64,000 nucleotides of DNA, taken from assembly GCA_024137785.1 (NCBI GenBank), contig JAHRHZ010000144.1, positions 36,482,672 to 36,546,671 of the forward strand, in the 5' to 3' direction. Origin of the DNA: Ginglymostoma cirratum (lineage: Eukaryota). Positions within the stretch are counted from its first letter, which is position 1. Each line of letters begins with the position of its first letter. A program made the position numbers and the translations under genes. The notes below the pieces were generated by a model, which ran no database searches, was not told where the DNA came from, and saw nothing but the letters and a program-made list of their open reading frames with translations. Of this stretch, positions 1 through 30,100 are shown one piece after another.

Positions 1-150
1 CAATACCACCAGAAGCTGCAATTGAAACTACAGCTATCAGTTCTGCTCTTGTGATTAAAAATTGTCAGAGAAAGCATCAAGGTGTGTACAATCTCGTTGC
101 GAAAAATGTAGGAGGTGAAAGAAGAAAGACAATTGTTGTTGAGGTTTTAG
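1..150 (+). CDS. TTN: titin exon (~human ex294), 3' part, Ig A22
   Basis: Frame 3 reads [35 protein letters not shown]...VEVL; donor G|GTAAAT at 150/151. Confidence 0.9.
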
Positions 151-3100
151 GTAAATATTCTTATTTCTTGGTTTTAATATTAGTACAATTTATTTTTCTT
201 AAGTATTTGAATAAAATGATTTTTTTTTAATATCATAGATGTTCCTGGGCCAGTTGGTGAACCTTTCCGCTGTGAAAATCTGACCAGCGATTCGTGCAAA
301 TTAACTTGGTTCCTTCCAGACGATGATGGCGGATCTGCTGTTACCAATTATATCATTGAAAAGCGCGAAGCTGAACGTCGAGGCTGGTCCCCTGTTTCGT
401 ACACAGTTACAAGGCAGAATGCTGTTGTTCAGGATCTAATTCAAGGAAATGTTTATTTCTTTAGAATTGCAGCTGAAAATATCATAGGCATGGGTCCATG
501 GGTGCAGACAACAAAAGAAATCACAGTTAAAGAACCAATCTGTAAGTGATCCTTCTGTTTACACTTTTTTCCAATCTTTAAGTATTAAATAAATCAACAG
601 TAACCACTGAATATATTTTAAAAAATGCATTTTCCTGACTTGCAGCTGTCCCTGAACGCCCTGAAGACCTTGAAGTAACAGCAGTCACAAAGCAATCAGT
701 TAGCTTGAAATGGAATCCTCCTAAGTACGATGGTGGATCAGACATTACAAAGTACATTCTTGAGGCCCGTCTTATTGGCAAAGAAAAGTTCGTCAAACTT
801 ACTAAAGAGAAATTGTTAGATCGGACTTTCAAACATAGTGGGTTAAAGGAAGGTGACACTTACGAGTACCGAGTCAGTGCGGTGAATGAAGTTGGACAAG
901 GCAAACCATCATTCTGCACAAAACCAATAACATGCAAGGATCAACTTGGTAAGCCAGCTTTCAGAATTCTTTTAAGAAAAATCCTGTTTCCTCTCCAGAA
1001 AGACAATAACAAAGTATTATTATCTTTAGAACCACCAACACTTGACCTGGATTTCCGCGACAAGTTGGTTGTGCGTGTGGGTGAATCTTTCAACCTGACT
1101 GGAAAATATAAAGGGAAACCTACTCCAAAGGTTTCTTGGCTTAAAGATGACGAGGCAGTTGAAGAAACTAATCGCCTCAAGATAAACACTACGCCATCAA
1201 AACTGAGTTTGGCAATTATGAAAGGTGTCCGTGGAGACTCAGGCAAATATTGTGTGGTGGTGGAGAACAACACAGGCGTACGTAAGGGTCTCTGTCAAGT
1301 GACTGTTGTTGGTAAGTTAGTTATTCACATCCTTTTTCAGTTTAAAGTATTGTAATATTGAAGTAGCAAACAGGATTCAGACTTTTTTTTTCTCATTCAG
1401 ATCGTCCACAGCCTCCAGTTGGCCCGGTTTTGTTCAATGAAATTCACAGAGATCACATGGTGATTTCTTGGAAACCCCCACTTGATGATGGAGGCAGTGT
1501 GATCACTAATTACATTGTTGAGAAAAGAGATGCACACCGAGAACTTTGGATGCCTGTTACTTCTTCAGTCACTAAAACAACGTGCAAGGTTCCGAAACTA
1601 ATTGAGGGCAAAGAGTATATTATCCGTATCTATGCTGAAAACATGTATGGAATCAGTGATGCCTTGCTTTCGGAAGAAATGAAAGCCAAAGATCGTTTCA
1701 GTGAGTATCGAACTTTGGATTTCTTGCATTAATATATTATGAAAAATACAAACAAAAACTGAGGAGCAAATTTAAAATTTAGCTTTTTATCCTAGTCATT
1801 TTCATCTAAAACAAGATAGATTCTTGATTACAGAAGGGTCTAGGCCCGAAACGTCAAGCTTTCCTGCTCCTATGATGCTGCTTGGCCTGCTGTGTTCATC
1901 CAGCCCCACAGCTTGTTATCTTAGAATCTTGATTACATATATTTTACAGTTTTGGGATTAAACATAATTGTACTTGGTGTACTCAACAAAGGTTAAGCTT
2001 TGTAATGAAAAGGCTTGCAATGTATTCAATAGCGAATAAATGCGAGGGAGAAATCTTCATTTTTATCCTTGCTTATTCCATTTTTAATCTTTTCTCTGAA
2101 GGCGTTCCTGAAGCCCCAGAGCAACCAATTATAAAGAATGTTACTAAGGATTCTGCAGTGGTGGTTTGGAATAGACCACGTGATGGTGGCAAACCTATCA
2201 CCAGATATATTTTGGAGAAGAAGGAAACCATGTCCAATCGCTGGACAAGAGCATCTATGGAGCCGATTTATCCAGACACTCAGTTCAAAGTAACTGACCT
2301 GCTTGAAGGCTGTGAATATGAATTCCGTGTTTCAGCAGAAAATGAAATAGGAGTTGGTGATCCCAGTCCGCCATCCAAGCCCATATTTGCAAAAGATCCA
2401 ATTGGTATATTAAACTTATGATCATTTACCTTTTCCTTCAAATAACTATTTTTGAGATGTGCTTGTCAGATTAATGATGGTCATATTTTTAACTGTTCTT
2501 ATCCAGTCAAACCAAGCCCACCGATTAATCCTGAAGCAGTGGACAAAACCAAATCTACTGTTGATTTAAAATGGCTACCTCCACGCCATGATGGAAGAGG
2601 GAAGATAATAGGTTACTTAGTGGAGTTTCAGAACGTTGGTGATGAAGAGTGGAAGAAAGCAAATCAAACACCAGATTCCTGCCCTGACACTCATTTCAAG
2701 GTGACAGGTCTTACTGAAGGTGATACATATAAATTCCGGGTAATGGCAGTCAATCAGGCTGGTGCCTCAGATCCGGCTTATGTCCACGATCCAGTGCAAG
2801 CAAAAGACAGACTGGGTGAGTGTTTTATAGGAATACAAAGCTGATCTTTCCACATTGAAGAGCTTTACGATTAATGGAGGGATTGCGGGAGGCAATAGCC
2901 TAGTGGTAATATCACTGGACTGTCAATCCAGAGACCCAGATAACATTCTGGGGATCCAGTTCAAATCCCGCCATGGCAGATGGTGGAATTTGAATTCAAT
3001 AAAATATCTAGAATTAAGAATCTAACAATGACCATGAATCCATTGTCAATTGTCAGAAAAACCCATCTGGTTCACTAATGCCCTTTAGGGAAGAAAACTG

Positions 3101-6100: not shown

Positions 6101-9100
6101 AAGAGGATGGTCTGTGATTTCATCTGATTTGACTAAACGTGTGGTCAAAGTTCCACTTACAACAAATCATGAATATTTCTTCCGTGTGTGTGCAGAAAAC
6201 AAAGTAGGACTGGGTCCAACTATTGAAACCAAAACACCAATCTTAGCTATCGATCCAGTGGAAAGACCTGGACCACCTGAAAATTTTCATGTTGCTGATA
6301 TAGGAAAGACATTTGTTCTGCTTAAATGGAGGAGACCCGATTATGATGGTGGTAGCCCTAATCTGTCCTATCACGTTGAAAGAAGGTTAAAAGATTCCGA
6401 TGAATGGGAAAGAATGCACAAAGGAAGTATTAAAGATACTAGTTTCATGGCTGACCGATGTATTGAGAACCAGACCTATCAGTTTAGAGTCCAGACTAAG
6501 AATGAAGGTGGTGAAAGTGACTGGGTGAAGACAGATTATGTTATTGTTAAGCAAGAAATGCAGAAACCAGTCTTGGACCTAAAGCTGGCTGGAGTACTCA
6601 CTGTAAGAGCAGGTGAAACCATCAGAATTGAGGCAGCTCTCAGAGGTAAACCTCAACCAGAAGTTGTTTGGGTAAAGGACAAAGATGCAGTTGATCTTAG
6701 CAAATCGCCTCGAGCTAAGATTGAAACAACTGCTGATGCATCCAAACTTGCTATAACTAAAGCTAAGCGTGAAAACAGTGGCAAATATGTAATCACTGCA
6801 ACTAACCCAGCTGGTAGCTTTACGGCATATGCTACTGTGAATGTTTTGGATGTACCAAGTGAAGTCAGAAATCTGAAAGTCTCTGGCATTGCAAGTGATA
6901 GGTGTAGAGTCAGCTGGGACCCACCAGCAGATGATGGTGGCTGTGAAATTCAAAACTATGTTCTGGAGAAGTGTGAAAGTAAGAGAATGGTCTGGTCCAC
7001 ATATTCTTCTTCCATAATTACCGAATATGCAAATGTCACTCATCTTATTGAAGGAAATGAATATATCTTCAGAGTACGTGCAGAAAACAAAATAGGTACA
7101 GGTCCACCAACAGAAACAAAGCCAATTGTTGCAAAGACACAGTTTAATAGACCTGGCCCTCCAGATGCACCAGAGATCACTAAAGTTGGAAAGGAAGAGA
7201 TGACTGTCGTGTGGAATGCGCCAGAAGATGATGGTGGAAAATCGATCACAGGATATATATTAGAAAAGAAAGAGAAACGATCTTTAAGATGGGTACCAGT
7301 CACCAAGACTGCAATTCCAGAGAGGCGAATGAGGGTTACAAATCTGATTCCTGACCATGAATACCAGTTCCGTGTCAAAGCTGAAAATGAAGTTGGAGTA
7401 GGAGACCCAAGTCCACCATCAAAACCAGCAATAGCAAAGGATCCGATGGGTATTTACTTTACAACTTTTTTGTGCATTTTTTAAGCATGAATATTTTGGT
7501 TCATTGTCACTCCTTAAATTTTGCCTGATTCATGTCCTATTTTTTTGTCTGCACAGAACCTCCTGGTCCTCCAGTTGGTCTAAAGGTGATTGATAGTACC
7601 AAGACCTCCATTTCCCTTGGCTGGTCGAAGCCAGTGTATGATGGTGGTTCTCCTATCATTGGTTATGTTGTTGAAATGAGACCAAAAGGTGTCAGCAAAT
7701 TACCTGAAGAAGGTTGGAAGAGATGTAATGTTGCAGCCCAGCTTGTTCTTACACAGTTCACCATGACCAACCTCAATGAGAAAGAAGAATATGAATTTAG
7801 GGTTTCTGCACAAAACCAGGTTGGAATTGGTCGTCCTGCTGAACTGAAGGAAGCAGTATCACCAAAGGAAGTGTTGGGTAGGCTCTGCATTTTGCTATTT
7901 TTCACTTCGTGATATAAATAAAACAGTTTGTTTAAATCTAGTATTGTTTCTTTACGATGTGATTTCTTATCCACAATTGATTCTTACTTTTTAGAACCAC
8001 CAGAGATTGATTTAGATGCAAGTCTAAGAAAGACTGTAACTGTCAGAGCAGGATGTCCTATCAGGTTGTTTGCCACCATCCGAGGTCGACCTGCACCTAA
8101 AGTCACCTGGAGGAGAGTGGGAATAGACAACGTTGTCAGAAAGGGTCAAGTAGACTTACTCGACACAATGGCTTTCCTCGTCATTCCTGATAGTACTCGT
8201 GATGATTCTGGCAAATATTCACTTACGCTTGTGAATGCAGCAGGCGAAAAGGCAGTGTTTGTCAATGTTATAGTTTTAGGTGAGTAATATACATTTCGAT
8301 GTTTCCTGGTCTGAACTGCGGAGGAATTTCTAAAGTATGTTCGGGGGAAACTTCCTTAATCAGTATGTTTTCTATTCAGTGTGGATGGAGTGATTGTTGC
8401 ATCTAGCCTGGGGGAAGAAATTGGGTCAAGTGGAATACATCACAATGTGGAAACATCTCAAGAATAGCGATCATTATATGATAAGATTGAAATATTTATG
8501 GAGAAGGACAAAGAGTAATGTAAAATAAAAATACTTAAGAGAGGAAGTTTGACTTATGTGGATCGAGGAGGTATTTGGCTCGGTTAAATTGGAAACAAAA
8601 CTGGCAGGCAGAACTGCTAAATGGGGTAATGAGCTGCCTGAACAGAAAAAATGATTCATTCAATGCGTATTCCCACCAGGCATAAAGGGAGGACAGGCAA
8701 AGCCAAAGTTGTCTGGATGATAAAGGATTTCGAGAATAGAATGAATATGAAAAATGGGGGCTTTGGTAGATGTCAACTTGAAAATGAAAAGGACAATCAG
8801 TCTGATTATGAAAAGCATTGTGAAGTGCAAAGGAAAATAGGGTGGGTAAAGAAAACAGTATGAGAATTAATTGGCAACTAACATAAATGGGAATCCAAAG
8901 GTCATCAAAGGTATATTAATAATAGAGTTGTCATAGGAATGGTAGGTCCCAATTATAAAAGAAATAGTTAATGGTAAAAACAGAAGGCTTGGCTGAGGTT
9001 GAATAATTTTATAACAAGAAGAGAACTCTTTGGCAAACACATGGTAAGTGAGAAGTTTCTTGCCATACAGGAGCAATCACAATAGCTAAGGAGGAGGTAC

Positions 9101-12100: not shown

Positions 12101-15100
12101 TATTTCAAAATGATTTTTGATGTTTAGCAGTCACAATTTTTCAGACAAGCATGGTAGCCATTTCTTATCTAACAAGGTCTCATAAACAACAATGAATGAA
12201 TCATACAATGATATTTTGAAGATGACCCAGCTTAACATCTTATGGTATCAAGTTGGCACATCCAACAATCCAACTTAATACACCACTGGAATGATGCCCC
12301 TAGACCTCATGTTCAGATCCTCAAGTGGAGCATTATTCCTCAATCTTCGTGTCATTTTTTTTTTGCAGTTGCACCAAAGATAATAATGCCTGAACTCATA
12401 TCTATCAAAGCTGGGAAGAAACTTAGAATTGAGGCCCACATTTCTGGCAAGCCTACACCAACTTGCACATGGATGAAAGGTGATGAGGATGTAATTCCAT
12501 CTAGTCGTCTGGTTGTGCATAATGCAAAGGATACTTCAGTACTCATCATTAAAGATGTGACCAGAAAAGATAGTGCCTACTACAAACTTACTGCAGAAAA
12601 TAGCTCTGGCATCGCCTCCCAGAAAATTCGAATTGTAGTCATGGGTATGTATATTCGTTACATTGCATAAGGGAACACATTTGAAAGAACTGGAGCTGTG
12701 TAAACAGTTTAATATTAATAGTGTTTGTGTGGGATGCTCTTTGGAGGGTCAGTGTAGACTCGAGGGGCCAAATGGCCTGCTTCCGCACTGTAGGGATTCT
12801 ATGATTCTATGAAGAACATGCAGATGCAGCAGGTGGTAAAGAAGGCAAATTGTATGTTGGCCTTTCAAGCGAGAGGACTCAAGTACAGGAGCTGAGTTTT
12901 CTTGAGACCATGCCTGAAACATAATGAGTCACTTTGGTCTCCTTCTCTGAGGAAGGATGTTCTTCTTAAAGAGGGAGTGCAGTGAAGGTTTTACCAGACT
13001 GATTCCTGGGATGGAGGAACTGACTGTGAAGATTGGTTGAATTGATTAGGATTATATTTGCTGGAGTTCAGAAGAATGAGGGAGGATTTCATAGGAACCT
13101 ATAAAATTCTAACAGGACAAGATAGGGCAGATGCAGGATGTTCCCAATGATGAGACAGACCACAATCACGGATCATAGTCTAAGGGAAAAAAAACCCCAA
13201 AGAATTGTGGATGATAAAAATCAGAACCAAAAACAGAAATTGCAGGTCTAGCAGCATCTGTGGAGATAAATTCTCTGTTTTTGCCATAGACTAAGGATAT
13301 GTTTTAAATCATTTAGGACTGAGATGAGAAATTTCTTCACCCAGAGAGTGATGAGCCTGTGGAATCCCCTACCACAGAAAGCAGTCAAGTCTAAAGCAGT
13401 GTATGACTTCAAGAAGTTGGATATAGGACTTGGGGCTAAAGGGATAAAACAGTATGAGGGAAAAGCAGGTACAGGCTGTTGAGTCAGATGATTAGCCGTG
13501 ATTATAATGAATGGCGAAGCAGGCTCGAGGGGCCAAATGCACTACTGCATCAATTTTTGTTGTTTCTATGCTAGCCAGTATTATTTAATTATTGATAATT
13601 GATATTTTTCAGATATTCCTGGACCACCACAACCACCATTTGATATCTCTGAAATTGATGCTGATTCATGCAACCTTAATTGGCACATTCCATTTGAAGA
13701 TGGTGGTAGCAGCATAACAAACTATGTCGTGGAAAAATGTGACGTAAGTCGTGGTGACTGGGTTACAGTTGTGTCATCTGTGACAAAAACAAACTGTAGA
13801 ATTGGAAAGCTGATCCCTGGACAAGAGTATATGTTCCGTGTTCGTGCAGAAAACAGATTTGGTATTTCAGAGCCCCTCACCTCTGATAAAATGATTGCGA
13901 GATATCAATTTGGTAAGCTGTTCCAAAATATTTGGGCTATACATTTTTTTTAAGATGTAACGTCTGGTTTAAGAGCTGACTATAGATTTTTTTTTTCCAT
14001 CGACAGATGTTCCCAGTGAACCAAGGAATGCACATGTCACAAAGGTGAACAAAGACTGCATATTTGTAGCGTGGGATAGACCAGAAAGTGATGGTGGTAG
14101 TCCTATCACTGGATATATCATTGAACGTAAAGAAAGAAATAGTCTTCTTTGGGTGAAGGCAAATGACACTTCTATCCGTGCCACAGAGTACCCATGTTCA
14201 GGACTAATTGAAGGGCTGGAATATACTTTCAGAGTCAGTGCACTGAACAGAGCAGGATGTAGCAAGCCTAGTAAACCAACTGAATTTGTAACAGCTAGGA
14301 CACCAGTTGGTAAGTATTCAGAAATGTTTTTTAAAATGTATAAAGTTATTTTAGAATTAAATTTAAGATATAAGAAATTTACAATAATTTAAATTGTACT
14401 TTAAATTTTGTGCATTAACTTAGAAATGTGTACCTATATTTTGTAACAGATCCACCAGGCAAACCAGAACCCATTGATATCACAAATAGTAGTGTTTCTC
14501 TCATCTGGGCAAGACCCAAACATGATGGTGGAAGCAAACTAATAGGCTATTTTGTTGAAGCCTGTAAATTACCTGGTGATAAGTGGATACGATGCAATAC
14601 TAGTTGTCAAAGTGTGCCTAGTGAAGAATTCACTGTTACCAATCTTGAAGAACATGCTCAATATCAATTCAGAGCCATTGCAAAGACGGCAATTAATATC
14701 AGCAAACCTTCTGAACCTTCAGATCCAGTGACCATCGTGGCAGAACAAGGTATGAATTAACCTCACAGCATTGTATCATTTTCTATGGAATTTCATTTTG
14801 CAGACATCAAATACTAACCTAATTCAAGAAATATCATTGATATTAAAATGCTTTGTTGAATTTACAGTTGCACCAAAAATTGATCTGGGAGTGTCCATGA
14901 AGTCATTGATCACCGTAAAGGCCGGATCTAATGTTTGTCTAGATGCCCATGTCTTTGGAAAACCCTTTCCAAAGATCACATGGAAGAAAGATGGCAACGT
15001 AGTAATGCCTGCTGAAGGCATTAAAATAGCCAGAACAAGAAACTTGTGCACGCTCGAATTGTATAGTGTACAGAGGAAAGAAACTGGAGAGTATACTATT

Positions 15101-18100
15101 GTTGCAGAGAATTCAAGTGGATCCAAATCAGCCAATATAAAACTGAAAGTATTAGGTAAAAATATTTTAAAATGTTTCATCGAATGTGTCAATCTGCTTA
15201 GTTATAAATTAGCTTAATAAAATGTATATGAATATTCATATTTCATTCATATTCAAATACACATTTAAGAACTTCATGAAATATTAATATGATTTTTGAG
15301 AATCTAAAGAAAAGGTGGAAGGCAAAATTTTAAAACAAAATATTAGTTTCATCTTTAGGTAATTAATTTTAAAATATTCATGCATGCTTATGTTCTGTTC
15401 TTTTGCCAGATAAACCTGGTCCACCAGCTTCTATCAAAGTTACCAATATTTATTCAGATCGCGTTGCTCTGAAATGGGAACCTCCGCTTGAGGATGGAGG
15501 TGCTGAGATTACAAACTATATTGTCGATAAGCGTGAGACAAGTCGACCTAATTGGGCTCAAGTTACTGCTAATTTACAGATTACACAGTGCGGAATAGAA
15601 AAACTGATAGAGGGACATGAATACCAGTTCCGTGTCAGTGCAGAAAACAAATATGGTGTTGGTGACCCAATCATTACCCATCCAGTTGTTGCTAAGAATC
15701 CTTACAGTAAGTAAAACACCTTCCTTTCCTCCCAAAGCTAATTTTTGATTTTAATTGAATGATCAAAAGATACTCAACACATACTTTGTATTATTTACAG
15801 ATGTACCTGGGCCATGTGATCCACCAATAATTAGTAACATCACTAAAGATCATATGACTGTTAGCTGGAAAGCACCAGCAGATGATGGTGGCTCTCCCAT
15901 CACTGGATACTTAGTGGAGAAGCGTGAGGCAATGGCTGTTAATTGGTCAAAGGTCAACAGGAAACCAGTTTTGGAAAGAACAATTAAAGCTGCAGGGCTT
16001 CAAGAAGGCACTGAATATGAGTATCGAGTTATTGCTTTGAATAAAGCTGGACCAGGCAAACCCAGTGAATCCTCAAAAGCAGCATTTGCTCTGGATCCTC
16101 TATGTAAGTGAACGGACTATATATATATATCAACTACACAACTGACTCACGTTTGTTAAACTTCTTTCATGCAAATTATTTTGTTTCTCCTCAGATCCTC
16201 CAGGACCTCCTGCTTTCCCAAAGGTCGTTGATACAACTCGCAATACGATCAGCTTATCTTGGAGTAAACCAGCATATGATGGTGGCAGTCCAATCTTGGG
16301 CTATCTAGTTGAAGTTAAGCGTGCAGATGGTGAAAACTGGGTAAAATGCAACATACCAAAGAACCTTCGTGATACACACTATGTTGTTACAGGACTGTCT
16401 GAAGGCACTGAATATAACTTCCGTGTGAGCGCAATGAACAAAGTAGGCTACAGTGATCCAAGTGAAGTGCCAGAGAAACATACTGCCAAGGATATTTTGA
16501 GTAGGTTTTCATTACTTGTATGAAGCAAATTAAGTCCTGTTGCGAAACATTGTAATTTTTCTCAGTAAGTCAGGCATCATCTGTGAAGAGACAAATGGCA
16601 CCTTTCAGACACATTTCGTTGGCCTGCTATGGTAACGCTATTTTTTCATCCACAAATGCTGCCGGACCTTCTGACTGTTTCCAGAATGTTTTGGTTTTAT
16701 TTCCGATTTCCAGTGCCTGTAGTATTTTAACTTCGTAGTATTTTTCTGAAGTTGTCTTTGCCATCATTTATAAAGAAGTACTATCATATTGTAAATAAAT
16801 AGTCTAACCCCTATGATAAAGTAATAGAGGGAATTTTCAGATAGATACATCAAATGTTTGTCATCCATAATTCAGAGAGACTGTGTTTCATCTGGGACTA
16901 ACACCAGATATGCCTGCCTTGGCGTGTTGCATATGTTTCTCAACTAGTCCTTAGGAAAATTCCTCAGGTTGGGGAGTGCCATGGTGCACGGTGATGTAAT
17001 TTTCCTCATAAGAAAGTGAATACAGAAATCAGATTTTTTAACGAAAGTGAGGAAATGTTGGAGCTTTTGCAAAATTAGATGAAAATTTTATGAGTAGTTT
17101 CTGATTATTTTGTGTGCAACTTGTTTTGTCTTAAGTGTGTGTAAAAATAATTTAAAGGTATGTAGTTGGGTAGATGAAGCCAAATAGCACGAGGGGTGAC
17201 CTAGAACACTATTGGTTCCTGGGGCATGGATCTGGGATCAGATTGAGCAGACTTATTGAAGTGAAGGTATTCTCTGGATAGTTGAAGAGATCTATTTGGT
17301 GGAAACAACTTTATGCCATACAATGTGATTTTGATATATTTGTATGATGTTTAATAATGAATATGTATTTCATGTATTTTTTTCATGAACAGTTGCTCCT
17401 GAAGCAGACCTTGATGCTGACTTAAGGAAGGTGCTTATTCTACGTGCTGGCGTCACAATGAGAATCTATGTGCCAGTGAGGGGTCGGCCTCCACCAAAGA
17501 TTAGCTGGTCTAAAGTGGATGCCAACATTCAGGACAGGCAAGGACTTGAAATCAGAACTTCGGATTATGACACGATGTTGTACTGTGAAAATGTGAATCG
17601 ATACGATGCTGGAAAGTACATTCTAACTCTACAAAACAGCAGTGGAACAAAAGCATATACACTTACTGTAAAAGTTCTTGGTAAGTTGTAACTAATTATT
17701 TTATTGTCAGATAAAGTTAAATTTTATTCATATAAAGCAGGTTGATTATAATTGTTTTATTCAGTGAGTTAACTTGTTTTTCACTTCTTAATTAGATACT
17801 CCTGGTCCTCCAGTCAATCTTATTGTTAAAGAAACAGCAAAGGATTTTGCTGTTATATCATGGGATCCTCCCCTTGTGGATGGCGGCAGTCCAGTTAAGA
17901 ATTACATTGTAGAGAAAAGAGATGCTGAAAGAAAGGCATGGTCAACTGTAGCGACTGAATGTGCCAAGACCAGTTTCAGAATTATTAATTTGGAAGAAAG
18001 TAAATATTACTACTTCAGAGTTTTAGCTGAAAATGAGTATGGCATTGGTGAACCTTGTGAGACAAAAGATGCTGTGAGAGCTTCAGGTAATTACTGGGTT

Positions 18101-21100
18101 TTTTTTAACACTATAAAGCAGAACAAAATTCTGCTTATCTTTATTTCTTTCCACTAAAATAATCTATTGTATAATGCAGAAGAACCTGGGCCTGTGATAG
18201 ACTTGAAGGCTGCAGCTGTATCCAAAAATTCTTGCACTTTGACATGGAAAAAACCAATCAGTGATGGAGGTAGCCGAATTACTGCTTATGTTGTTGAAAT
18301 GATGGTTCAGGAGGACAAATGGAAAGAAATGATGAGAGCTAAGAAGTTGCAGTTTCTAACAAGTGAACTGGAAGAAGGAAAGGAATACACTTTCAGAGTA
18401 GTAGCACAGAATGATGCTGGATACAGTGTACCACGTGAAATTACACTTGTAGCAAGGGATCAAGTTGGTAAGTATTTCTTCATAATAACACACCATAAAT
18501 AATAAGATCATATTGGCACTTACATATTATACAGTAACAAATAGAAGCTCAAATACAAAATTTGAATTGTTGAAAATATAATTACTAATTTTGATATTCT
18601 TAGCAAAGATAACTAGGCCGTCTGAAATACTGCCATGCCCTCAGCATCTTATGAAATGTTTTACAATTATTAGATTACTTTTAAAGTTAATGTAACTGAA
18701 TATGCCAGGCAATATAATTGAAGCAAATTACCGGGCCACTATTTTGTTTCAAAAGGAATCTTATCCAGGATTTCTTCTTCAGACATTGCTTTTGAAACCC
18801 TTAACCCATCAAAACAGATTGATGGGATCTCAAATAAACATTTCAGCTTCTTACAATACTGCAGTCAGTTGTTCGCCTGCATTAAATGTTCAAGCCCAAA
18901 TGAAGGTTGAAGCCATGAAGATCTGACAACGAGATGAATGTGCTACTAAGGCACACTAACAAAAATCCTAATTGGTAAAATAGCATTTAACGTTGTAATC
19001 CTGCACTGTCTATGCAGGTAACTGTAGAAGTAGATGAGCTTTAAACAAAATCAATTGACTTGACATTTAGTAAATTTAAACTAAATCTACACCAGTCAGG
19101 TATTTTGTATTTAAAAGGAAACCCTCACCACCAAAAAATTAACAATTAGATTATGCCTGACTACTCTACCTAAACTGTTCAGAGATAGTGAGAACTGCTG
19201 ATGCTGGAGAAAACAGAGCTGGATGAACGCAGCAGGCCAAGCAGCATCAGAGGAGCAGGAAAGCTGACATTTCGGGCCTAGACCCATCTTCAGAAGAAGG
19301 CTCTAGGCCCAAAATGTCAGCTTTCCTGCTCCTCTGATTCAGTTGGATGAACACAGCAGGTCAAGCTGAATTGCTTCTGAAGATGGGTCTAGGCCCGAAA
19401 CGTCAGCTTTCCTGCTCCTCTGATGCTGCTTGGCCTGCTGTGTTTATCCAGCTCTACACCTTGTTATCTCTACTTAAACTGTTTGTTTGTTTTGCTTCTG
19501 ATTTCCTCAGAGAAGTGTCTAGAAACACAATTTATGGATTTCCAAAAGGCATCAAAAGAAGGTTCTGTGTAAAGGTTTTTTAGCAAAATGAAACTTTGTA
19601 TTTAGCAGCTTGAAAGACAGTCAAATTGAGTGCCTAAATTTTATTAGCTCCCAGAAGGCAGGTTAGAAGCCTGCTAAAGGTGTGGAGAGCTGGATCAGAA
19701 CAGATCCACAATGCATTCCCACAGCCCCAACACTTTACCAACAATGCTGGCAGCAAAATTCAGGATGAAACATTTGAAATGACAAAAGCAAAATACTGCC
19801 GATGCTTGAGATCTGATATTACAGTAGAATGTTCTGGAGAAATTCATCAGAACTGGCAGCAGCTGTGTAGAGAGAAATAGTTAGCATTTTGTGTCCAAAA
19901 TGACTCTCCTTCACAAAGTTTCTCCAGTTTAAAATGATAAACTGATTCAGTGGATTAAGATAACTATTTTTCTGACAGAGTAATCAGAACAAGGGGTCAC
20001 ACTCTTAAAATCTTAAAATTAATGTTTAGGCCATTGCTGAGTTTTGCATAATTGGTAGAGGAAATATAGAATTGTTTCCACCCTAAAAGGCTGTAAATTC
20101 TAGGACAATTCGAATTTCCAAAACAGATCAGAGCTTGTTAATAGGTAAGAAGAGGAGGATTTTGGTCCAAAGGTGGGTTGAGAGAGCTGAGATACCAGCC
20201 AAGATCTAATTGAATGGTACAATACTATCAAGAGGCTGAATGATATGGCCCTGCTTCTCTTATGGGGTGCAGTATGACTTGTAATTCCACATTCAATTAT
20301 AGGATTCCACATCTTAATGAATTACATTTGTCTCATGTTATTAATATTTTCATAAGTCAAATACATAATTTGTGCAGGGAATTAAACCGTGATTATTATA
20401 ATAAGCGCTTTGAAATTTCTTAGTCACAATATGTCACTTAGGGTAACTTGTTTTAAGTTAAACCTTAAATTGTACTGGATAGTTTCTTAAGGCTTTACCT
20501 ATAATAGAAAACTGCATTTAAAAGCCTAAGAATAGTTTCAAAGCATTCCTACCAAAACTGAAATCTGAACTCATTAAACTAAATCACTCTCTTTGAATTA
20601 ACAGTACCGCCAAATATTGATTTACGAGACATCCCTGACCTAACATACATTGCCAAGGAGGGAAGTAATTTCCATATAAAGATCCCCATCAGTGGCAAAC
20701 CCGCACCAACCGTAACATGGAAGAAAGGTGAAGATTTACTTCAGGAAAGTGGAAGAATAAATGTAGAATCCACAGCAATTAATACAACACTCTCAGTGCG
20801 AGATTGTCAAAAGAGCGATGCTGGAAAATACACAATCAATTTGAAGAATGCTGCTGGCACTAAAGAAGCTGCAATATTCATGAAAGTAGTTGGAAAGCCT
20901 GGAATACCAACCGCACCTTTCCGTTTTGATGAAATAACGGCAGAGGCGATTACACTAATCTGGGCGCCCCCTAAGGATGATGGCGGTGCCGAAATTACAA
21001 ACTATGTTTTAGAAAAGCGCGATAATGTCACCAATAAATGGGTGACTTGTGCCTCAGCTGTACAAAAAACATCATTCAGAATTACAAGGCTTCATGAAGG

Positions 21101-24100
21101 AAATGAGTATGTGTTTAGAGTAAGTGCTGAGAATAAATATGGAGTGGGAGAAGGTCTGAAATCTGACCCTGTCATTGCCAGGCATCCATTTGGTAAGCAG
21201 CTTCACATTTTATCTCTAAACTTTAATTGCAATGCTGCACTCACTTTTAGACTAATTGATGTCTGTCTTTCTCTCTTCCAAGATGTGCCTGATGCTCCTT
21301 TGCCTCCAGAAATAGTTGCAGTCAGGCACGATTCAGTCTCCCTGATTTGGAAGGATCCAAAGAAAACTGGTGGCTCCCCAATCACAGGTACATAGTTTGA
21401 TTTCTCCCTTTCGGCCAGCAGTTACATTTATATAATTACACAATATTTATTTCAAACCACTTTTTGCACCAGGTTATCATGTTGAATATAAAGAAAGAAA
21501 CAGCCTCCTTTGGAAGAGAGCCAATAAGACTACACTAAAAATGAGGGATTTTAGCGTACCAGGTTTGACTGAAGGACTTGAATATGAGTTTAGAGTCATG
21601 GCAATTAACTTGGCTGGTGTAGGCAAACCAAGTGGACCATCGCATCCTGTTACCACGTTAGACCCAATTGGTAAGTAAAATCCTTGGTGCCATTTTTCAC
21701 TGCCTTCTTTTGCGTCTTATAAATGATGCAACCAGTGGCTGACAGTAGATTGTTCACTTTCCAGATCCTCCTGGAAAACCTGAAGTCATTAATGTTACCC
21801 GGACAAGTGTGACTCTAATCTGGACTGAACCAAAGTATGACGGTGGTCACAAACTAATTGGCTACATTGTTGAGAAACGAGACCTACCTTCCAAGACATG
21901 GATGAAAGCAAATCATATTAACGTTCAGGAGTGTGCCTTTACTGTTACTGATCTTACTGAGGGCTGTAAATATGAATTCCGTATAAGGGCAAAGAATGCA
22001 GCAGGAGCAATTAGTCCACCATCTGAAACTACTGGAACTATTATCTGTCAGGATGAGTATGGTAAGTAATTTTCTTTTTTTTTAACCACCTGATTAAAAA
22101 CAAAACTGAAAAATTAACACTCATAGTGCTAATTAACTTATCTCTTTTATATCCACAGTGGCACCAACAATTGTAATTGATCCTACAGTAAAAGAAGGCT
22201 TAACAGTTAAGGCTGGTGATACCATTGTAATTACTGCAACTAGCATTCTTGGCAAACCTCCACCAACATCTGTTTGGTCTAAGGGTGGTAAAGACTTCAA
22301 GGTGTCTGAAATAGTTCAAATCGAAAAAACTCCAACTTCCTCAACACTGCATGTTAAATATGCCACTAGAAAAGATTCTGGAGAATATACTATTACCGCC
22401 AGTAATCCATTTGGCACCAAAGAAGAACATGTACGTGTGAAAGTGCTGGATGTTCCCGGTCCCCCAGGACCTATTGAAATAAGCAACGTTTCATCTGAGA
22501 AGGCTACACTAAATTGGTTACCTCCAGCTGAAGATGGAGGTTCTCCCATCAAATCTTATACAATTGAAAAGAGAGAAACTAGTCGTCTTCTCTGGACTTT
22601 AGTTGCTGAAGATGTTCCAAGTTGCAGATATATTGCAAGCAAACTTATACAGGGAAATGAATATATCTTCCGTGTCTCTGCTGTAAATCAATATGGAATT
22701 GGTGATCCAGTACAGTCAGAACCAGTTAAAATGGTGGACAGTTTTGGTAATTACTTTCATTTCTAAAACAAAACTGGGCATTATGTGACTTCTGACCTTG
22801 TCTTATTAGAAATATAAACTTCATTTGTGATATTTCTCTCTTAGGTCCCCCTGGCCCACCTTCAAAGCCTGAGGTCACCAATGTCACCAAAAATACCGTT
22901 ACTGTTGGGTGGAAGAGACCAGTTGATGATGGCGGTAGTGAAATAACAGGATATATTGTAGAACGTAAAGAAAGGAAAGGTCTCAGGTGGATTAGAGCAA
23001 CAAAGAAACTGATTTCTGATCTCCGACACAAAGTGACAGGACTGAATGAGGAAACTGAGTATGAATTCCGTGTCAGTGCGGAAAATAAGGCAGGCATTGG
23101 ACCTCCAAGTGAGCCATCACAACCAGTATTAACAAAGGATGTAGCATGTAAGTATGAACACTTTTCTCATATTTGTTACATGTGAATTGTTCTTTGAAAA
23201 TAGAACTCCTTGACATCAAAATACTTAACACTAATGTCATTGCACTCTTTTCTTTCAATTTATACAGATGTACCTGGACCACCTTCTAACCCAAGAGTGG
23301 TTGACACAACAAAAACTACAGCCAGTTTGACTTGGGGGAAACCCCACTATGATGGTGGCCTTGACATTATTGGGTATATAGTTGAACATAAGAAAGAAGG
23401 CGATGAGAACTGGATAAAAGACACAACAGGCACTGCACTCAGAATAACTGAATTTGTTGTTGCTAACCTTCAGTCAGGAGAAAAATACAACTTCAGAATT
23501 AGTGCCGTCAATGCAGAGGGCGTTGGTGAGCCTGCACAAGTAGAAGGTCTTATTGAAATTAAGGAACGTGAAGTCGCCCCTGATTTTGAGTTGGATGCTG
23601 AACTGAGGAGAACTCTTGTTGTCAGAGCTGGAGTAACCATTCGCATCTTTGTACCAATTAAAGGCCGTCCAACTCCTGAGGTTACATGGCTAAAAGGAGA
23701 CATCCCAGTTAAAGGCCGAGCAACTGTAGAAACCACAGATTCTTACACGTTTTTGCTCATCCCAGACTGCACACGATACGATGCCGGAAAGTACACAATG
23801 TGTCTTGAAAATATTGCTGGTAAAAAGAGTGGTTTTGTAAATGTGAGGGTTTTAGATTCACCAGGACCACCCATCAATCTCAAAGCCAGAGAAGTAACAA
23901 AAGACAGTGTTACCATACAATGGGATATGCCAATGATTGATGGCGGCTCACGGATAACCAATTACATTGTAGAGAAACGAGAATCAACCCGGAAGGCATA
24001 TTCTACTGTCACAACCAATTGTCAGAAGTGTTCACTCAGAGTTGTCAATTTGTCAGAAGGAAGTGAGTATTACTTCAGAGTAATGGCCGAGAATGAATAT

Positions 24101-27100
24101 GGCATAGGTGAACCAGCTGAGACTTCAGATCCTATAAGAGCATCTGAAGCCCCATCACCTCCCGAACGCCTACACATTATGGATATCACAAAGCATACTG
24201 TTAGTCTGTCTTGGCCAAAACCAGAACATGATGGTGGTAGCAAGATTACAGGATATGTACTTGAGGCACAGAAGAAAGATTCTGAAAAATGGATGGCTTT
24301 GGCAACTGTAAAGACACTAGATTATGTTGCAAAGAATCTTAGTGAAAACGAAGAATACACATTCCGAGTGATGGCAGTCAATGCTGTTGGAAGGAGTGAT
24401 CCACGAGAAAGCAGACCAGTTCTTGTGAAAGAACAAACTATGCTTCCGGAATTTGATCTGCGTGGCATATACCAGAAGCTTGTGATTGCAAAGGCAGGTG
24501 ATAATATCAAAGTTGATATCCCTGTCCTTGGTCAACCCAAACCAACAGTCACTTGGAAGAAGGATGACCAGCCTTTGAAGCAAACACAGAGAATAAATGT
24601 GGAGAGTACAGCAAATTCAACTATACTCAACATCAATGAATGCACACGAAATGACAGTGGCAAGTTCACACTGACTGCTAAAAATATACTTGGTGAAGTA
24701 AGTGACATCATCACTGTTCAAGTTCATGACATTCCAGGGCCCCCAAAAGGACCAATTAAATTTGATGAAATTTCATCTGATTACATATTGCTGTCATGGG
24801 AGCCTCCTGAAAATGATGGTGGAGTGCCAATAACCAATTACATCGTAGAAATGCGTGAGACCGACAGCACTTCATGGGTAGAGCTAGCAGCTACTGTAAT
24901 ACGTACAACATTTAAAGCACCTCACCTTACAACTGGAACTGAATATCAGTTCCGAATTAAAGCTCAGAACAGGTATGGTGTCGGTCCTGCAATTTCTTCA
25001 GAGGCTGTTGTCGCAGCATACCCATTTAAGGTGCCAGGACCTCCCGGAACTCCTCAAGTTATTGCTGTTAGTAAGGATTCAATGACAATCACCTGGAATG
25101 ACCCTGTTACCGATGGTGGAAGTCGAATTTTTGGATACCATGTTGAAAGAAAGGAAAGAAATAGTATACTTTGGCAAACTGTAAGTAAGTCATTGGTTGT
25201 AGGCACCACATTTAAATCAACTGGACTTACTGATGGCATTGCATATGAATTCCGTGTAATAGCAGAAAACTTGGCTGGCAAAGGTAAACCAAGTAAACCC
25301 TCGGAACCAGTGTATGCATTGGACCCCATTGATCCTCCTGGTAAACCAGTTCCACTTAACATTACAAGAAATTCTGTGACACTCACCTGGACAAAACCAG
25401 AATTTGATGGAGGCTTCAAAATAACTGGTTACACAGTGGAAAAGAGAGATCTACCTAGTGGCCGCTGGCTTAAGGCAAACTTTAGTAATGTCCTGGAGAC
25501 TGTCTTTACTGTCAGTGGTCTTAATGAAGGTGACAAGTATGAGTTCCGTGTATTAGCTCGTAATGCTGCTGGTTCAATAAGCAAACCATCTGAACCTACT
25601 GATGCAATCATATGCAGAGATGACATTGAAGAACCCAGAATAATGGTTGATGCTAAATTCAAGAGTCTTATACTATTGAAAGCAGGTGAAATCTTCAAAC
25701 TCGAAGCAGATGTCAGAGGACAACCACCACCAACCATGGTCTGGACAAAAGATGGAAATGAACTTGAAGAAACCGGAAAAGTGGAAGTAAAGATGTCAGA
25801 TTTCTCTACTGTTCTTACTCACAAAGACAGCGTAAGAAGAGATGGTGGTGCTTATATGCTTACTGCAAGCAATCCTGGAGGAACAGCGAAGCATGTTTTT
25901 AATGTCAAGATTTTGGATAGACCTGGACCTCCTGAAGCACCTATCATAATTTCAGATGTCACAGCAGAAAAATGTGTGATATCATGGTTGCCGCCAGTAG
26001 ATGATGGTGGTGCAAAGATTGACCACTACGTCGTTGAAAAACGTGAAACCAGTAGACTTGCATGGACTAATGTGGCTACAGATGTTCAACTAACCAAATT
26101 AAAGATAACCAAACTTCTGCAAGGGAATGAATATATTTTCCGTGTTATGGCAGTAAATAAATATGGGGTTGGAGAACCATTAGAATCTGAACCTGTTGTC
26201 GCTGCCAATCCATTTGTCCCACCTAGCCCGCCAAAGAATCCCACGGTTACAGCTATTACGAAGGATTCAATGGTGGTTTGTTGGGAGCATCCTGATTCTG
26301 ATGGTGGAAGTGAAATAACTAACTACATTATTGAGAGGCGTGACAAGACAGGAATGCGCTGGATTAAATGCAACAAAAGAACCGTCACTGATCTACGATA
26401 CAAAATTGGAAAGCTTACAGAAGGCCATGAATATGAATACAGAATCATGGCTGAAAATGCTGCTGGTGTAAGTCAACCCAGTTCTTCCAGCCCATATTAT
26501 AAAGCAATGGATACTGTGTTCAAACCTGGACCACCAGGTAACCCTAGAGTCCTAGACACGAGCAGATCTTCAATCACTATAGCATGGAATAAACCCATTT
26601 ATGATGGCGGCTCAGAAATTACAGGTTACATGGTTGAAACAAGTCTCCCTGAAGAGGATGAATGGACAGTTGTAACACCACAGAGTGGACTCCAGGCCAC
26701 ATCTTTCACAATCACTAATCTGAAAGAAAACCAAGAGTACAAAGTTCGCATATATGCTATGAACTCTGAAGGTATTGGAGAACCTGCACAAATTCCTGGA
26801 ACAGCTAAAGCTGAAGAAAGGTTATTGCCTCCTGAAATTGAGCTTGATGCAGACTTGCGTAAAGTGGTATCTATAAGAGCTTGTTGCACTTTGAGATTAT
26901 TTGTCACAATTAGAGGAAGACCGACACCTGAAATTAAATGGGCAAGGGAAGACGGGGAACCCCTGGATCGAGCTTCAATTGAAAATACAAGCTCATACTC
27001 TCTCCTTATCATTCAAAATGTGAATAGATTTGACAGTGGCAAGTATATCTTAACAGTTGAGAACAGTGGTGGCAGCAAATCTGCTTTTGTCAATGTTAGA

Positions 27101-30100
27101 GTTCTGGATACCCCAGGAGCACCGCAGAATCTTAAAGTTAAGGAAGTTTCTAAAGAGTCAGTTACAATCACTTGGGAACCTCCACTCATTGATGGTGGCT
27201 CCAAGATTAATAATTACATTGTGGAGAAAAGAGAATCAACAAGAAAAGCATACTCTACAGTGATTGCCAACTGTCATAAAACAACCTGGAAGGTAGATCA
27301 CTTGCAAGAAGGTTGCAACTATTACTTCCGCGTCCTAGCGGAAAATGAATATGGAATAGGTCTTCCTGTTGAGACACCTGATGCAATTAAAGTATCAGAA
27401 AGGCCACTACCACCAGGCAAAGTGACTCTTGTCGATGTGACAAGAAACAGTGCAGTTTTGTCATGGGAGAAACCAGAGCATGACGGAGGCAGTAGAATTT
27501 TAGGATACATAGTAGAAATGCAAAGTAAAGGCAGTGATAAGTGGACTACATGTGCTACAGTGAAAATAACTGAAGCTACCATCACAGGATTGACACAAGG
27601 TGAAGAGTATATATTCCGAGTATCAGCACAAAATGAGAAAGGTGTCAGTGATCCCCGACAGCTAGGAGTCCCTGTCATTGCAAAGGATCTGGTGATTGCT
27701 CCTGTTCTGAAGCTTCTGTTTACCACATTCAGTGTCCTAGCAGGAGAAGATTTAAAGGTTGATGTGCCATTTATTGCACGCCCGAAACCAACTGTATCTT
27801 GGCTGAAAGATAATCAGCCATTAAAACAAACAACAAGGATAAATGCTGAGACCAAAGATAATAGAGCAGTTCTGATGATCAAGGAGGCCTGTCGTGAAGA
27901 TGTGGGTCAGTACAACGTAAAACTTACAAATACAGCCGGGGAAGCATCTGAAAATCTTAGCATTGTTGTTTTAGACAAGCCTGGGCCTCCAACTGGACCA
28001 GTTAAAATTGATGACGTTACTGCAGACAGCATTATTGTATCATGGAATCCACCAGAATATGATGGTGGTTGTCAAATCAACAATTATATCGTTGAGAAAA
28101 GAGATACTTCAACCACTGTCTGGCAGATTGTTTCTGCTACTGTTGCCCGAACAACAATTAAAGCTGCACGTTTAAAGACTGGTACTGAATATCAGTTCAG
28201 AATTGCAGCTGAGAATAGATATGGAAAGAGTAGTTACCTTACTTCTGAATCTGTTGTGGCACAATACCCTTACAAGACACCTGGCCCACCTGGTACTCCT
28301 TTCATAACAAATATTACAAAGGATAGCATGGTGGTGCAATGGAATGAACCAGTCAATGATGGTGGCAGCAGAGTTCTAGGTTACCATCTTGAACGCAAAG
28401 AAAGAAATAGCATTTTATGGATGAAATTGAACAAGACAATTATTTCCGATACAAAATTAAAGTCTACAAATCTTGAAGAAGGCATTGAATATGAATATAG
28501 AGTTTATGCTGAGAACATCGTTGGCATTGGCAAACCAAGCAAAGTGTCGGAATGCGTCGCCGCTAGAGATCCTTGTGATCCTCCAGGTCGCCCTGAAGCA
28601 ATAATTGTCACTAGAAATTCCGTGACATTACAGTGGACCAAACCTGAATATGATGGAGGCAGCAAAATCACTGGCTACATTGTTGAAAAGAAAGAACTTC
28701 CTGATGGTCGTTGGATGAAAGCCAGCTTTACAAATGTCATTGATACTCAGTTTGCTGTAACTGGCTTAGTTGAAGACCAGAGATATGAGTTCAGGGTAAT
28801 CGCTAGAAATGCAGCTGGTGTATTCAGTGAACCATCTGAATCCACTGGTCCAATTACTGTTAGAGATGAAGTAGACCCACCTCGAATTAGCATGGATCCA
28901 CAATATAAGGAGGGTATTGTAGTACATGCAGCTGAAACATTCAAAATTGAAGCTGATGTTTATGGAAAGCCAATACCTACAATCCAATGGATGAAAGGAG
29001 ACCAAGAACTTGAAAACACAGCTAGGCTTGATATTAAAAGTACAGATTTTAATACAATTTTGACAGTCAAGGAAACTATTCGTATAGATAGTGGCCACTA
29101 TACCCTGTTGGTAAAGAACGTAGCTGGTGAAAAGTCTGCTATTGTTAATGTGAAGGTACTAGATAGACCAGGACCACCTGAAGGCCCAATTGTTATAACT
29201 GGAGTAACTGCTGAGAAATGCACATTGACCTGGAAGCCACCAAAACACGATGGTGGTAGTGATGTGTCACATTACATTGTTGAAAGGAGAGAAACTAGTC
29301 GTTTAGTCTGGACATTAGTTGATGCTAATGTCCAAACTCCAAGTTGCAAAGTTACCAAGCTTCTGGAAGGAAATGAATACATCTTCCGTGTTATGGGTGT
29401 AAACAAATATGGTGTAGGTGAGCCACTTGAATCAGATCCTGTAATAGCAAAGAATCCATTTGTACGCCCTGATCCACCAAAGACACCTGAGGTTACTGCG
29501 ATCACAAAGGACTCAATGGTAGTTGTATGGGGAAGACCTGTATCTGACGGTGGTAGTGAAATTCAGGGTTACATTTTGGAAAAACGTGACAAGGAAGGCA
29601 TTAGATGGACAAGGTGTAACAAACGGCTGGTCAGTGAACTACGTTACAGGACAACTGGACTTATAGAAAACCATAATTATGAATTTAGGGTATCTGCTGA
29701 AAATGCTGCTGGTATCAGTGAACCAAGTCCATGCTCCATTTTCTATCAGGCATCTGACCCTATCTACAAACCTGGACCACCCAACAATCCCAAAATAACT
29801 GATTTTACAAGGTCTTCTGTCTTCCTTTCATGGGGTAAACCCATTTATGATGGAGGATGTGAAATTCAAGGATACCTTGTGGAGATGTGTGATGTAAGCA
29901 CCGATGAATGGATAATGTGCACAGCAGCAAGTGGCATTAAGCAGACCCACTTTGAAGTGGCTAAATTGCAGGAAAAGCATGAATACAAGTTCCGTGTCTG
30001 TGCTATCAATAAAGCTGGAGTTGGCGAACATGCTGACTTTCCTGGTACTGTCCTTTTGGAAGATAAGTTAGAAGCTCCAGACCTTGACCTTGATGCTGAT

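What the first reader, a model, noticed from the sequence alone, without database searches (positions are those of the whole stretch)
19164..19483. TSD-flanked palindromic non-autonomous element carrying a minimal hammerhead ribozyme core inside a titin intron
Seen: a ~290-nt unit made of four pieces of one terminal repeat (forward 19181-19296, reverse ~19293-19338, short forward 19341-19366, reverse 19374-19467). A 16-bp direct repeat with 1 mismatch bounds it, so it appears to have inserted as one unit. On the + (pre-mRNA) strand, 19377-19404 reads CUGAAGA-U-GGGUCUAGGCCC-GAAAC-GUC: the hammerhead core boxes, a 4-bp stem II, and a palindromic ACGU in place of stem III. Known: Penelope-like retroelements carry minimal type I hammerheads in their terminal repeats, thought to cleave as dimers, and often insert as inverted 5'-truncated repeats. 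Inference: this is a non-coding, Penelope-mobilised, retrozyme/MITE-like family in a chondrichthyan genome. It is the best candidate here for a little-described system.
Basis: partly seen in the sequence, partly recalled or inferred. Interest (0 to 1): 0.7.

Follow-up and report, generated by a model that had tools for sequence, protein, structure and literature searches.

The report
Penelope retrotransposon fragment in titin intron
This is an ordinary short, inverted insertion of the ribozyme-bearing end of a very abundant Penelope-type jumping gene inside a titin intron, where its hammerhead ribozyme motif is predicted to be folded away and inactive.

Summary
The structure is real: a 13-16 bp target-site duplication, four alternating pieces of one ~130-nt unit, and a minimal hammerhead core at 19377-19404, inside titin intron 18468-20604. 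It is not a separate non-coding retrozyme/MITE family. The unit is the pseudo-LTR of an autonomous Penelope-like retrotransposon with RT, a Neptune-type CX4CX2C linker and GIY-YIG nuclease. 20 of 20 RT-anchored loci carry it downstream on the same strand. Short and ORF-linked copies intermix in every subfamily. Roughly 0.35-0.65 million insertions are estimated genome-wide. Head-to-head arms, a tail on one arm only, TSDs and minimal hammerheads are all published Penelope features. In the titin pre-mRNA the core is predicted to be buried in an 82-bp hairpin; stem I is broken and there is no intact dimer partner, so cleavage is unlikely. One point goes beyond what I found in print. Short copies stop sharply 1-7 nt before the hammerhead core, often with extra T's, rarely at the cleavage site. 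That suggests reverse transcriptase starts inside the RNA leader and runs off its 5' end. Verdict: new member of a known kind; low interest, with one testable mechanistic lead.

The parts
19164..19179 (.). Left target-site duplication (13-16 bp)
19180..19295 (-). Arm 1: inverted copy of the pseudo-LTR unit, -2 to +128, carrying the optional ~34-nt tail, a ~15-nt internal deletion, and a hammerhead core on the minus strand (19293-19266) with a CpG change in the ACGU palindrome
19289..19338 (+). Piece 2: unit -2 to +47, overlapping arm 1 by 7 nt at the near-palindrome TTC(T/A)GAA; core broken (U4>A, G12>A)
19341..19366 (-). Piece 3: unit +51 to +76, inverted
19375..19470 (+). Arm 4: unit -2 to +93, tail-less 3' end (the upstream of the two 3' end positions)
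19377..19404 (+). Minimal type I hammerhead motif: CUGAAGA 19377-83, extra U 19384, stem II 19385-88/19393-96, GAAA 19397-400, palindromic ACGU 19400-403, C17 19404; stem I broken
19468..19483 (.). Right target-site duplication
18468..20604 (+). Host intron (GT..AG) of a titin-like gene
1832..1921 (+). Second, solo copy of the same family (another subfamily), cut inside the CUGA box, with its own 16-bp TSD
19785..19927 (-). Decayed copy of a related hammerhead-bearing repeat family in the same intron; a separate insertion

Best explanation
It is a non-coding, 5'-truncated insertion of the pseudo-LTR of an autonomous Penelope-like retrotransposon, likely of the Neptune clade, likely made by two-ended target-primed reverse transcription, and its hammerhead motif is predicted to be inactive in the titin pre-mRNA. 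SHOWN: the ~130-nt unit follows the RT-GIY-YIG ORF on the same strand and, in a full-length copy, also precedes the ORF start. Copies end at two 3' positions (~+94, ~+128). Head-to-head pairs carry one of each. TSDs are 8-17 bp. Short copies arise in every subfamily. INFERRED: the GIY-YIG nuclease nicks both strands 13-16 nt apart, and each 3'-OH primes reverse transcription inside the element RNA, one at +94 and one at +128. The cDNAs stop at or before a fixed boundary just 5' of the hammerhead, most likely the RNA's 5' end. They are then joined head to head, here with two extra template switches that left pieces 2 and 3. The ribozyme motif is a passenger of the pseudo-LTR; in the titin transcript arm 4 would pair with arm 1 and stem II would not form.
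For: 7 of the 29 other best-matching loci share >350 nt upstream, encoding RT/GIY-YIG or its C-terminal end. 20 of 20 RT-anchored loci have the unit ~1.5 kb downstream on the same strand; 7 of 20 have an inverted unit at the 5' end. L035 is a ~3.65-kb copy with direct units at both ends and an ORF starting ~167 nt after CUGA. Pfam RVT_1 (E 2.8e-5) and GIY-YIG (E 3e-4), both below the curated cut-off. Motifs YIDD, CNRRKCYTC, VVY..CxxC..YIGE, EH, NHF. 47,116 first-look candidates for the RT segment. Fixed-position sample of 400,075 non-N nt: 44 insertions, of which 32 single, 11 head-to-head and 1 same-strand pair; TSDs in 18 of 36 evaluable against 4.5% null. One tail+ and one tail- arm in 15 of 16 inverted pairs over two samples, p = 2.6e-4 against 0.5. 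Short and long copies intermixed on the tree. Stem II pair probability 0.00 in element context against 0.89-0.99 for the isolated 46-mer. Published parallels: PMC8557442, PMC3846280, PMC11167929, PMC4209133.
Against: No enzymatic or RNA data. The two middle pieces are not explained by a simple two-primer model. Arms 1 and 4 share a T at +7 found in only 2 of 46 sampled copies, while piece 2 has the common A; other pairs show no excess of shared rare variants (1 of 51, null mean 0.96), so this locus may have seen later conversion or a second template. The tree is poorly resolved (95 columns, 9 of 104 branches starred) and 24-36 of 500 shuffles were as low, so slight clustering exists. A splice-acceptor-like motif ~25 nt upstream of CUGA in 61 of 66 read-through copies suggests some transcripts start further upstream. 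The Neptune assignment rests on motifs, not on a tree with named elements. Folding is an equilibrium prediction.
Confidence: 0.82

Rival explanations
1. The short copies are a separate non-autonomous retrozyme/SINE-like family with its own master copies starting just before the hammerhead, mobilised in trans by the Penelope protein.
For: The 5' boundary is sharp: 37 of 92 sampled pieces start at -7..-1 and only 2 at -29..-8. Retrozymes derived from PLE pseudo-LTRs are reported in vertebrates, including one chondrichthyan (bioRxiv 10.64898/2026.07.22.740005). Solo copies could be re-transcribed if the promoter is internal.
Against: Short and ORF-linked copies share every major haplotype, and identical sequences occur in both classes; 0% of 200 bootstrap trees give one label change. 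No fixed palindromic architecture: junctions differ from locus to locus. No head-to-tail tandem of intact ribozymes at this locus.
Confidence: 0.08
2. The ribozyme is active or co-opted in the titin pre-mRNA and cleaves the intron co-transcriptionally.
For: The core boxes are intact on the sense strand. The insertion is also present at the matching locus in two related organisms whose flanks differ by about 3% and 6%.
Against: Stem I is broken, stem II is sequestered in the long hairpin, and the only near same-strand partner has a dead core. Minimal hammerheads do not cleave as monomers and cleave poorly as dimers (PMC4209133); the anole one needs the element's protein (PMC11167929). Presence in relatives is expected for any fixed insertion among ~0.5 million.
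Confidence: 0.04
3. The inverted structure arose by fold-back self-priming on an antisense or cDNA template, or by later recombination between neighbouring copies, rather than by priming from both target strands.
For: Junctions often fall on the near-palindrome TTC(T/A)GAA. L137 has arms that share a private base and non-element junction sequence. Self-priming on an antisense template was proposed in PMC3846280. The shared +7 T in arms 1 and 4 fits copying of one arm from the other.
Against: A fold-back copy should end at the same 3' position or at random, yet 15 of 16 pairs have one +94 and one +128 end. There is no general excess of shared rare variants. One TSD bounds the whole unit, arguing against later recombination.
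Confidence: 0.15

Closest known systems
Neptune-clade Penelope-like elements (EN+ PLEs)
   Same: Single ORF with RT, CX2-5CxxC linker and C-terminal GIY-YIG with CCHH residues; pseudo-LTRs; 5'-truncated inverted copies; 30-40 bp tail on one end; minimal hammerhead in the pseudo-LTR (PMC8557442 passages).
   Different: No (TA)n microsatellite targeting was evident in the flanks printed (not tested formally); TSDs are clear. Very high copy number. Family identity with any Repbase/Dfam entry could not be checked.
Poseidon_Ac (PAc) of Anolis carolinensis
   Same: Two RT start sites bounding the tail; both DNA strands cut and extended; hammerhead not needed for insertion in vitro (PMC11167929 parts 1-2 of 4).
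   Different: PAc lacks the Neptune linker by clade definition, and its ORF starts in stem II; here the ORF starts ~167 nt after CUGA. PAc showed no strand difference in start site in vitro, whereas here the two arms use different sites in 15 of 16 pairs.
Minimal hammerheads (min-HHR) of metazoan PLEs
   Same: CUGANGA, extra nucleotide between 9 and 10.1, G10.1-C11.1, palindromic 15.2-16.2, mostly dispersed single motifs from truncated PLEs, some close together on opposite strands (PMC4209133 parts 1-2 of 4).
   Different: Stem II is 4 bp. Stem I is degenerate in the window's subfamily (2 pairs then a mismatch in 29 of 73 read-through copies) but 4 bp in a sister subfamily (26 of 73).
Non-LTR retrozymes of animals
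   Same: Non-coding, type I hammerhead, related to PLE pseudo-LTRs.
   Different: Defined as head-to-tail tandem repeats with at least two complete ribozymes; this locus is head-to-head with one intact sense core, and is TSD-flanked.

Membership tests
EN+ Penelope-like element (parent family) | Single ORF with RT followed by C-terminal GIY-YIG | tested here: met
   (Pfam hits below curated cut-off)
EN+ Penelope-like element (parent family) | Direct or inverted pseudo-LTRs with optional 30-40 bp tail | tested here: met
   L035 direct; 7 of 20 RT loci inverted; bimodal 3' ends
EN+ Penelope-like element (parent family) | Hammerhead motif in the pseudo-LTR, sense strand | tested here: met
   20 of 20 RT-anchored loci
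EN+ Penelope-like element (parent family) | RT groups with PLE/telomerase RTs in a phylogeny | not tested
Neptune clade | CX2-5CxxC Zn-finger-like linker between RT and EN, plus CCHH in the EN | tested here: met
   CNRRKCYTC at 872; VVY 909, CTRC..YIG 915, EH 936, NHF 952 of the L037 frame; definition from PMC8557442. Nematis shares the linker and is set aside only by recall that it is a nematode clade.
Neptune clade | Placement with named Neptune RTs | not tested
   No reference set
Minimal type I hammerhead (min-HHR) | Core boxes CUGANGA / GAAA / UH, G10.1-C11.1, palindromic 15.2-16.2 | tested here: met
   14 invariant columns across 12 copies from three families with different stems; 18 hits against 0-1 in controls
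Minimal type I hammerhead (min-HHR) | Helix I of 4-5 bp | tested here: not met
   Window copy U-A, U-G, C.C, G-U, pair probability near 0; met in sister subfamilies
Minimal type I hammerhead (min-HHR) | Self-cleavage | not testable with these tools
   Needs an in vitro assay
Non-LTR retrozyme | At least two consecutive head-to-tail units with complete hammerheads | tested here: not met
   Second plus-strand piece has a broken core; 1 of 44 sampled insertions was a same-strand pair, and its second piece was ORF sequence
Non-LTR retrozyme | Circular RNA product | not testable with these tools
   No raw RNA reads were offered
MITE / separate non-autonomous family | Uniform structure and a lineage separate from coding copies | tested here: not met
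   Junctions vary; short and long copies intermixed

The most novel reading that the evidence does not exclude
The element's RNA begins about 4 nt before the hammerhead core, at an initiator-like YYANWYY (CCATTTC; TCAGTTC in a sister family), so the ribozyme is the very 5' end of the transcript. The protein primes reverse transcription inside this leader at two sites, one per target strand, and runs off the 5' end adding extra A's. This strong-stop product, not a non-autonomous master, would explain hundreds of thousands of 95- and 130-nt solo copies and the one-tailed palindromes. Uncleaved RNA would be the template, and the subfamily with a broken stem I still amplified, so the ribozyme would be dispensable for retrotransposition in vivo.
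Probability: 0.45. Interest if true: 0.5.

Novelty: new member of a known kind. Interest (0 to 1): 0.22.

Why it matters
As a locus it matters little: it is one of roughly half a million insertions of a Penelope-like element, and Penelope expansion in shark introns is already reported (10.1101/443036, passages). The family is useful as a natural experiment on an unsolved transposition cycle. Its copies record where reverse transcription starts (two sites, one per arm) and where it stops (just before the hammerhead, seldom at the cleavage site). That gives in vivo predictions for the open questions of how Penelope palindromes and tails form and whether the hammerhead is needed.

Tried and rejected
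Rfam E-value scan: no hammerhead family; 16 matches, all far below gathering score, mostly miRNA models fitting the hairpin; rejected. A loose CUGANGA..GAAA pattern is not enriched in the window (12 against 6.96 expected), so the strict descriptor was used. RNA expression: no RNA holder listed; no conclusion. Empty site: not seen. Contigs of organisms B and C run from the flanks into the element (C on both sides, B on the right), and no listed joint skips it. Mapping 5' ends from related-species contigs was inconclusive: the hot-spot position was not among the 12 loose-end rows shown of 728. Cleavage-defined 5' ends: only 6 of 92 pieces start at +25..+32; rejected as the main source. A T-variant subfamily at +7: rejected, 2 of 46 sampled copies; the ORF-like ATG it creates is incidental. 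Shared rare variants between arms: no excess. A cap-derived G before A(-4): 9 of 29 against 15 templated C; suggestive only, post hoc. The automatic pairing of RT-anchored loci (31 of 37) included spurious long-range pairs and was dropped in favour. PDB sequence search: nothing significant. The protein atlas gave no result, so no taxon list for the ORF. Earlier scan findings: none.

Full report
Observation. The described structure is present. A 16-nt direct repeat with one mismatch lies at 19164-19179 and 19468-19483, and the outer arms are 82 nt at 96% complementarity. Alignment to a genomic copy gives four pieces: minus 19180-19295 (unit positions -2 to +128, 0 being the C of CUGA, with a ~15-nt deletion), plus 19289-19338 (-2 to +47), minus 19341-19366 (+51 to +76) and plus 19375-19470 (-2 to +93). 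The TSD is therefore 13-16 bp. The locus is in an intron (GT 18468, AG 20604) between fn3 and I-set/fn3 exons of a titin-like gene on the plus strand. The taxon was not tested.

What the unit is. A search of the own genome (4.36 Gb) gave 1,104 first-look candidates, of which 40 were scored. Of the 29 other loci returned, 7 share more than 350 nt upstream of the hammerhead, and that sequence encodes RT and GIY-YIG motifs, or their C-terminal end, on the same strand. The RT segment has 47,116 first-look candidates. I fetched 20 of the 150 scored RT matches, chosen for long open frames or top score. All 20 carry the unit about 1.5 kb downstream in sense orientation, and 7 of 20 also carry an inverted unit at the 5' truncation point. 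L035 is a ~3.65-kb copy with the unit at both ends; the 5' unit runs through the tail into an ORF that starts ~167 nt after CUGA. Pfam RVT_1 and GIY-YIG match below their curated cut-offs. The motifs YIDD, CNRRKCYTC, VVY..CxxC..YIGE, EH and NHF are present. By the definitions in PMC8557442 (passages) the linker marks Neptune or Nematis, not Penelope/Poseidon.

Unbiased sample. I took 80 stretches of 10 kb at fixed round positions (400,075 non-N nt) and 40 more as a replicate (217,906 non-N nt). The first sample held 54 unit pieces in 44 insertions: 32 single, 11 head-to-head, 1 same-strand pair. This scales to about 480,000 insertions (Poisson 350,000-640,000), a rough figure because large contigs were favoured and N stretches were excluded. 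TSDs of 8-17 nt were found in 18 of 36 evaluable insertions (8 at edges or N were dropped), against 4.5% of 397 random pairs. 3' ends are bimodal: over both samples 36 pieces end at +88..100 and 50 at +120..130, of 101. In 15 of 16 inverted pairs one arm has the tail and the other does not (one borderline pair, L069, may belong to a related family). The window locus follows the same rule.

Not a separate family. On a tree of 117 units (66 reading through into the upstream element sequence, 51 not; two loci are present twice), the label needs 32 changes against 36.6 shuffled. No bootstrap tree gives one change, and identical sequences occur in both classes. The tree is poorly resolved, and 24-36 of 500 shuffles were as low, so slight clustering is not excluded. 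Junction structures differ between loci.

The 5' boundary. 37 of 92 pieces start at -7..-1, 2 at -29..-8, 20 read through beyond -30, 6 start at +25..+32 around the cleavage site, and 27 start elsewhere inside the unit. Ten of the 37 are, by inspection, copies of a related family or too diverged to place, two of them read-through copies of that family; this leaves 27 of at most 82. Read-through copies have exactly three T before CUGA in 65 of 66 cases, while 20 of 53 others have four or more (Fisher p = 8e-9). In the fixed-position samples alone it is 8 of 34 against 0 of 18. Several copies of the related family stop at the same place. I infer run-off at the RNA's 5' end with added A's; the surrounding CCATTTC fits an initiator consensus recalled from general knowledge. 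A protein- or structure-imposed stop is not excluded. An acceptor-like motif at -25 in 61 of 66 read-through copies suggests some transcripts start further upstream, as in Drosophila Penelope, which has an internal promoter and a 5' intron (PMC2377424, passages).

The ribozyme. A strict descriptor finds 18 motifs in 464,075 nt and 0-1 in controls. They fall into three families with different stems and 14 invariant columns in 12 aligned copies; the descriptor itself fixes most of those columns. The features match the minimal hammerheads of PMC4209133 (parts 1-2 of 4 read), which did not cleave as monomers. In the window's subfamily stem I has two pairs and then a mismatch; a sister subfamily has four pairs. 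In the titin transcript the element folds into a long hairpin (z = -20), stem II has probability 0.00, and piece 2 has a broken core. Cleavage here is unlikely; this is a prediction. In the anole element the ribozyme needed protein and was not required for insertion (PMC11167929, parts 1-2 of 4).

Age. Contigs from two related organisms run from the flanks into the element (organism C on both sides, B on the right), with about 3% and 6% flank differences. The insertion predates those splits; no empty site was seen.

Known and new. Inverted 5'-truncated copies, a tail on one end and TSDs are described in PMC8557442 and PMC3846280 (passages). Hammerheads in PLEs are reviewed in PMC6155905 (passages). 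Retrozymes as tandem PLE derivatives are in bioRxiv 10.64898/2026.07.22.740005 (parts 1 and 3 of 5 and passages; supplements not seen). Penelope expansion in whale shark introns is in 10.1101/443036 (passages). Seven searches returned no paper, by listing, on this family or on a fixed stop just before the hammerhead. The library lacks most subscription journals, and Repbase/Dfam were not available.

Verdict. An ordinary insertion of a Penelope-like element, new member of a known kind, interest 0.22. The run-off and asymmetric-priming reading has probability about 0.45 and would merit about 0.5.

Noticed in passing
window 1832-1921: Solo copy of the same family in another titin intron, cut inside the CUGA box, with a 16-bp TSD.
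   Followed up: yes
window 19785-19927 (-): Decayed copy of a related hammerhead-bearing repeat family in the same intron, 74-77% like three sampled loci.
   Followed up: partly
L081 (two or three copies), L061:5779-5820, L063:7494-7535: Second family with a 5-bp stem II and a CAGUU/AACUG stem I; solo copies also start 2-4 nt before CUGA. A link to an ORF was not shown.
   Followed up: partly
L058:596-641 (-), L077:8909-8954: Third family with a 6-7 bp stem II and an AC-rich 3' region, reminiscent of the anole Poseidon start region; ORF link not tested.
   Followed up: partly
L137:3682-3957: Another complex inverted insertion whose arms share a private base and 14 nt of non-element junction sequence, suggesting one arm was copied from the other.
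   Followed up: partly
L035 oriented 2650-2960: The ORF N-terminal half has a low-complexity A/T/D/P-rich stretch with short repeats before the RT, recalling the low-complexity inserts of rotifer Penelopes.
   Followed up: no
L047 oriented 5747-6226: Partial tandem: a second 5'-truncated copy follows the 3' unit directly, the classic pseudo-LTR-forming arrangement.
   Followed up: no
window 2884-3274, 12717-13572, 16649-16708, 40489-40598: Other interspersed repeats in titin introns; 13270-13479 translates like a LINE ORF2 end (label recalled).
   Followed up: no
window 23204-40423: A 5,740-codon open frame, the very large titin A-band exon.
   Followed up: no
window 19384 and 19286: Arms 1 and 4 share a T found in 2 of 46 sampled copies while piece 2 has A; unexplained (conversion or two templates).
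   Followed up: partly
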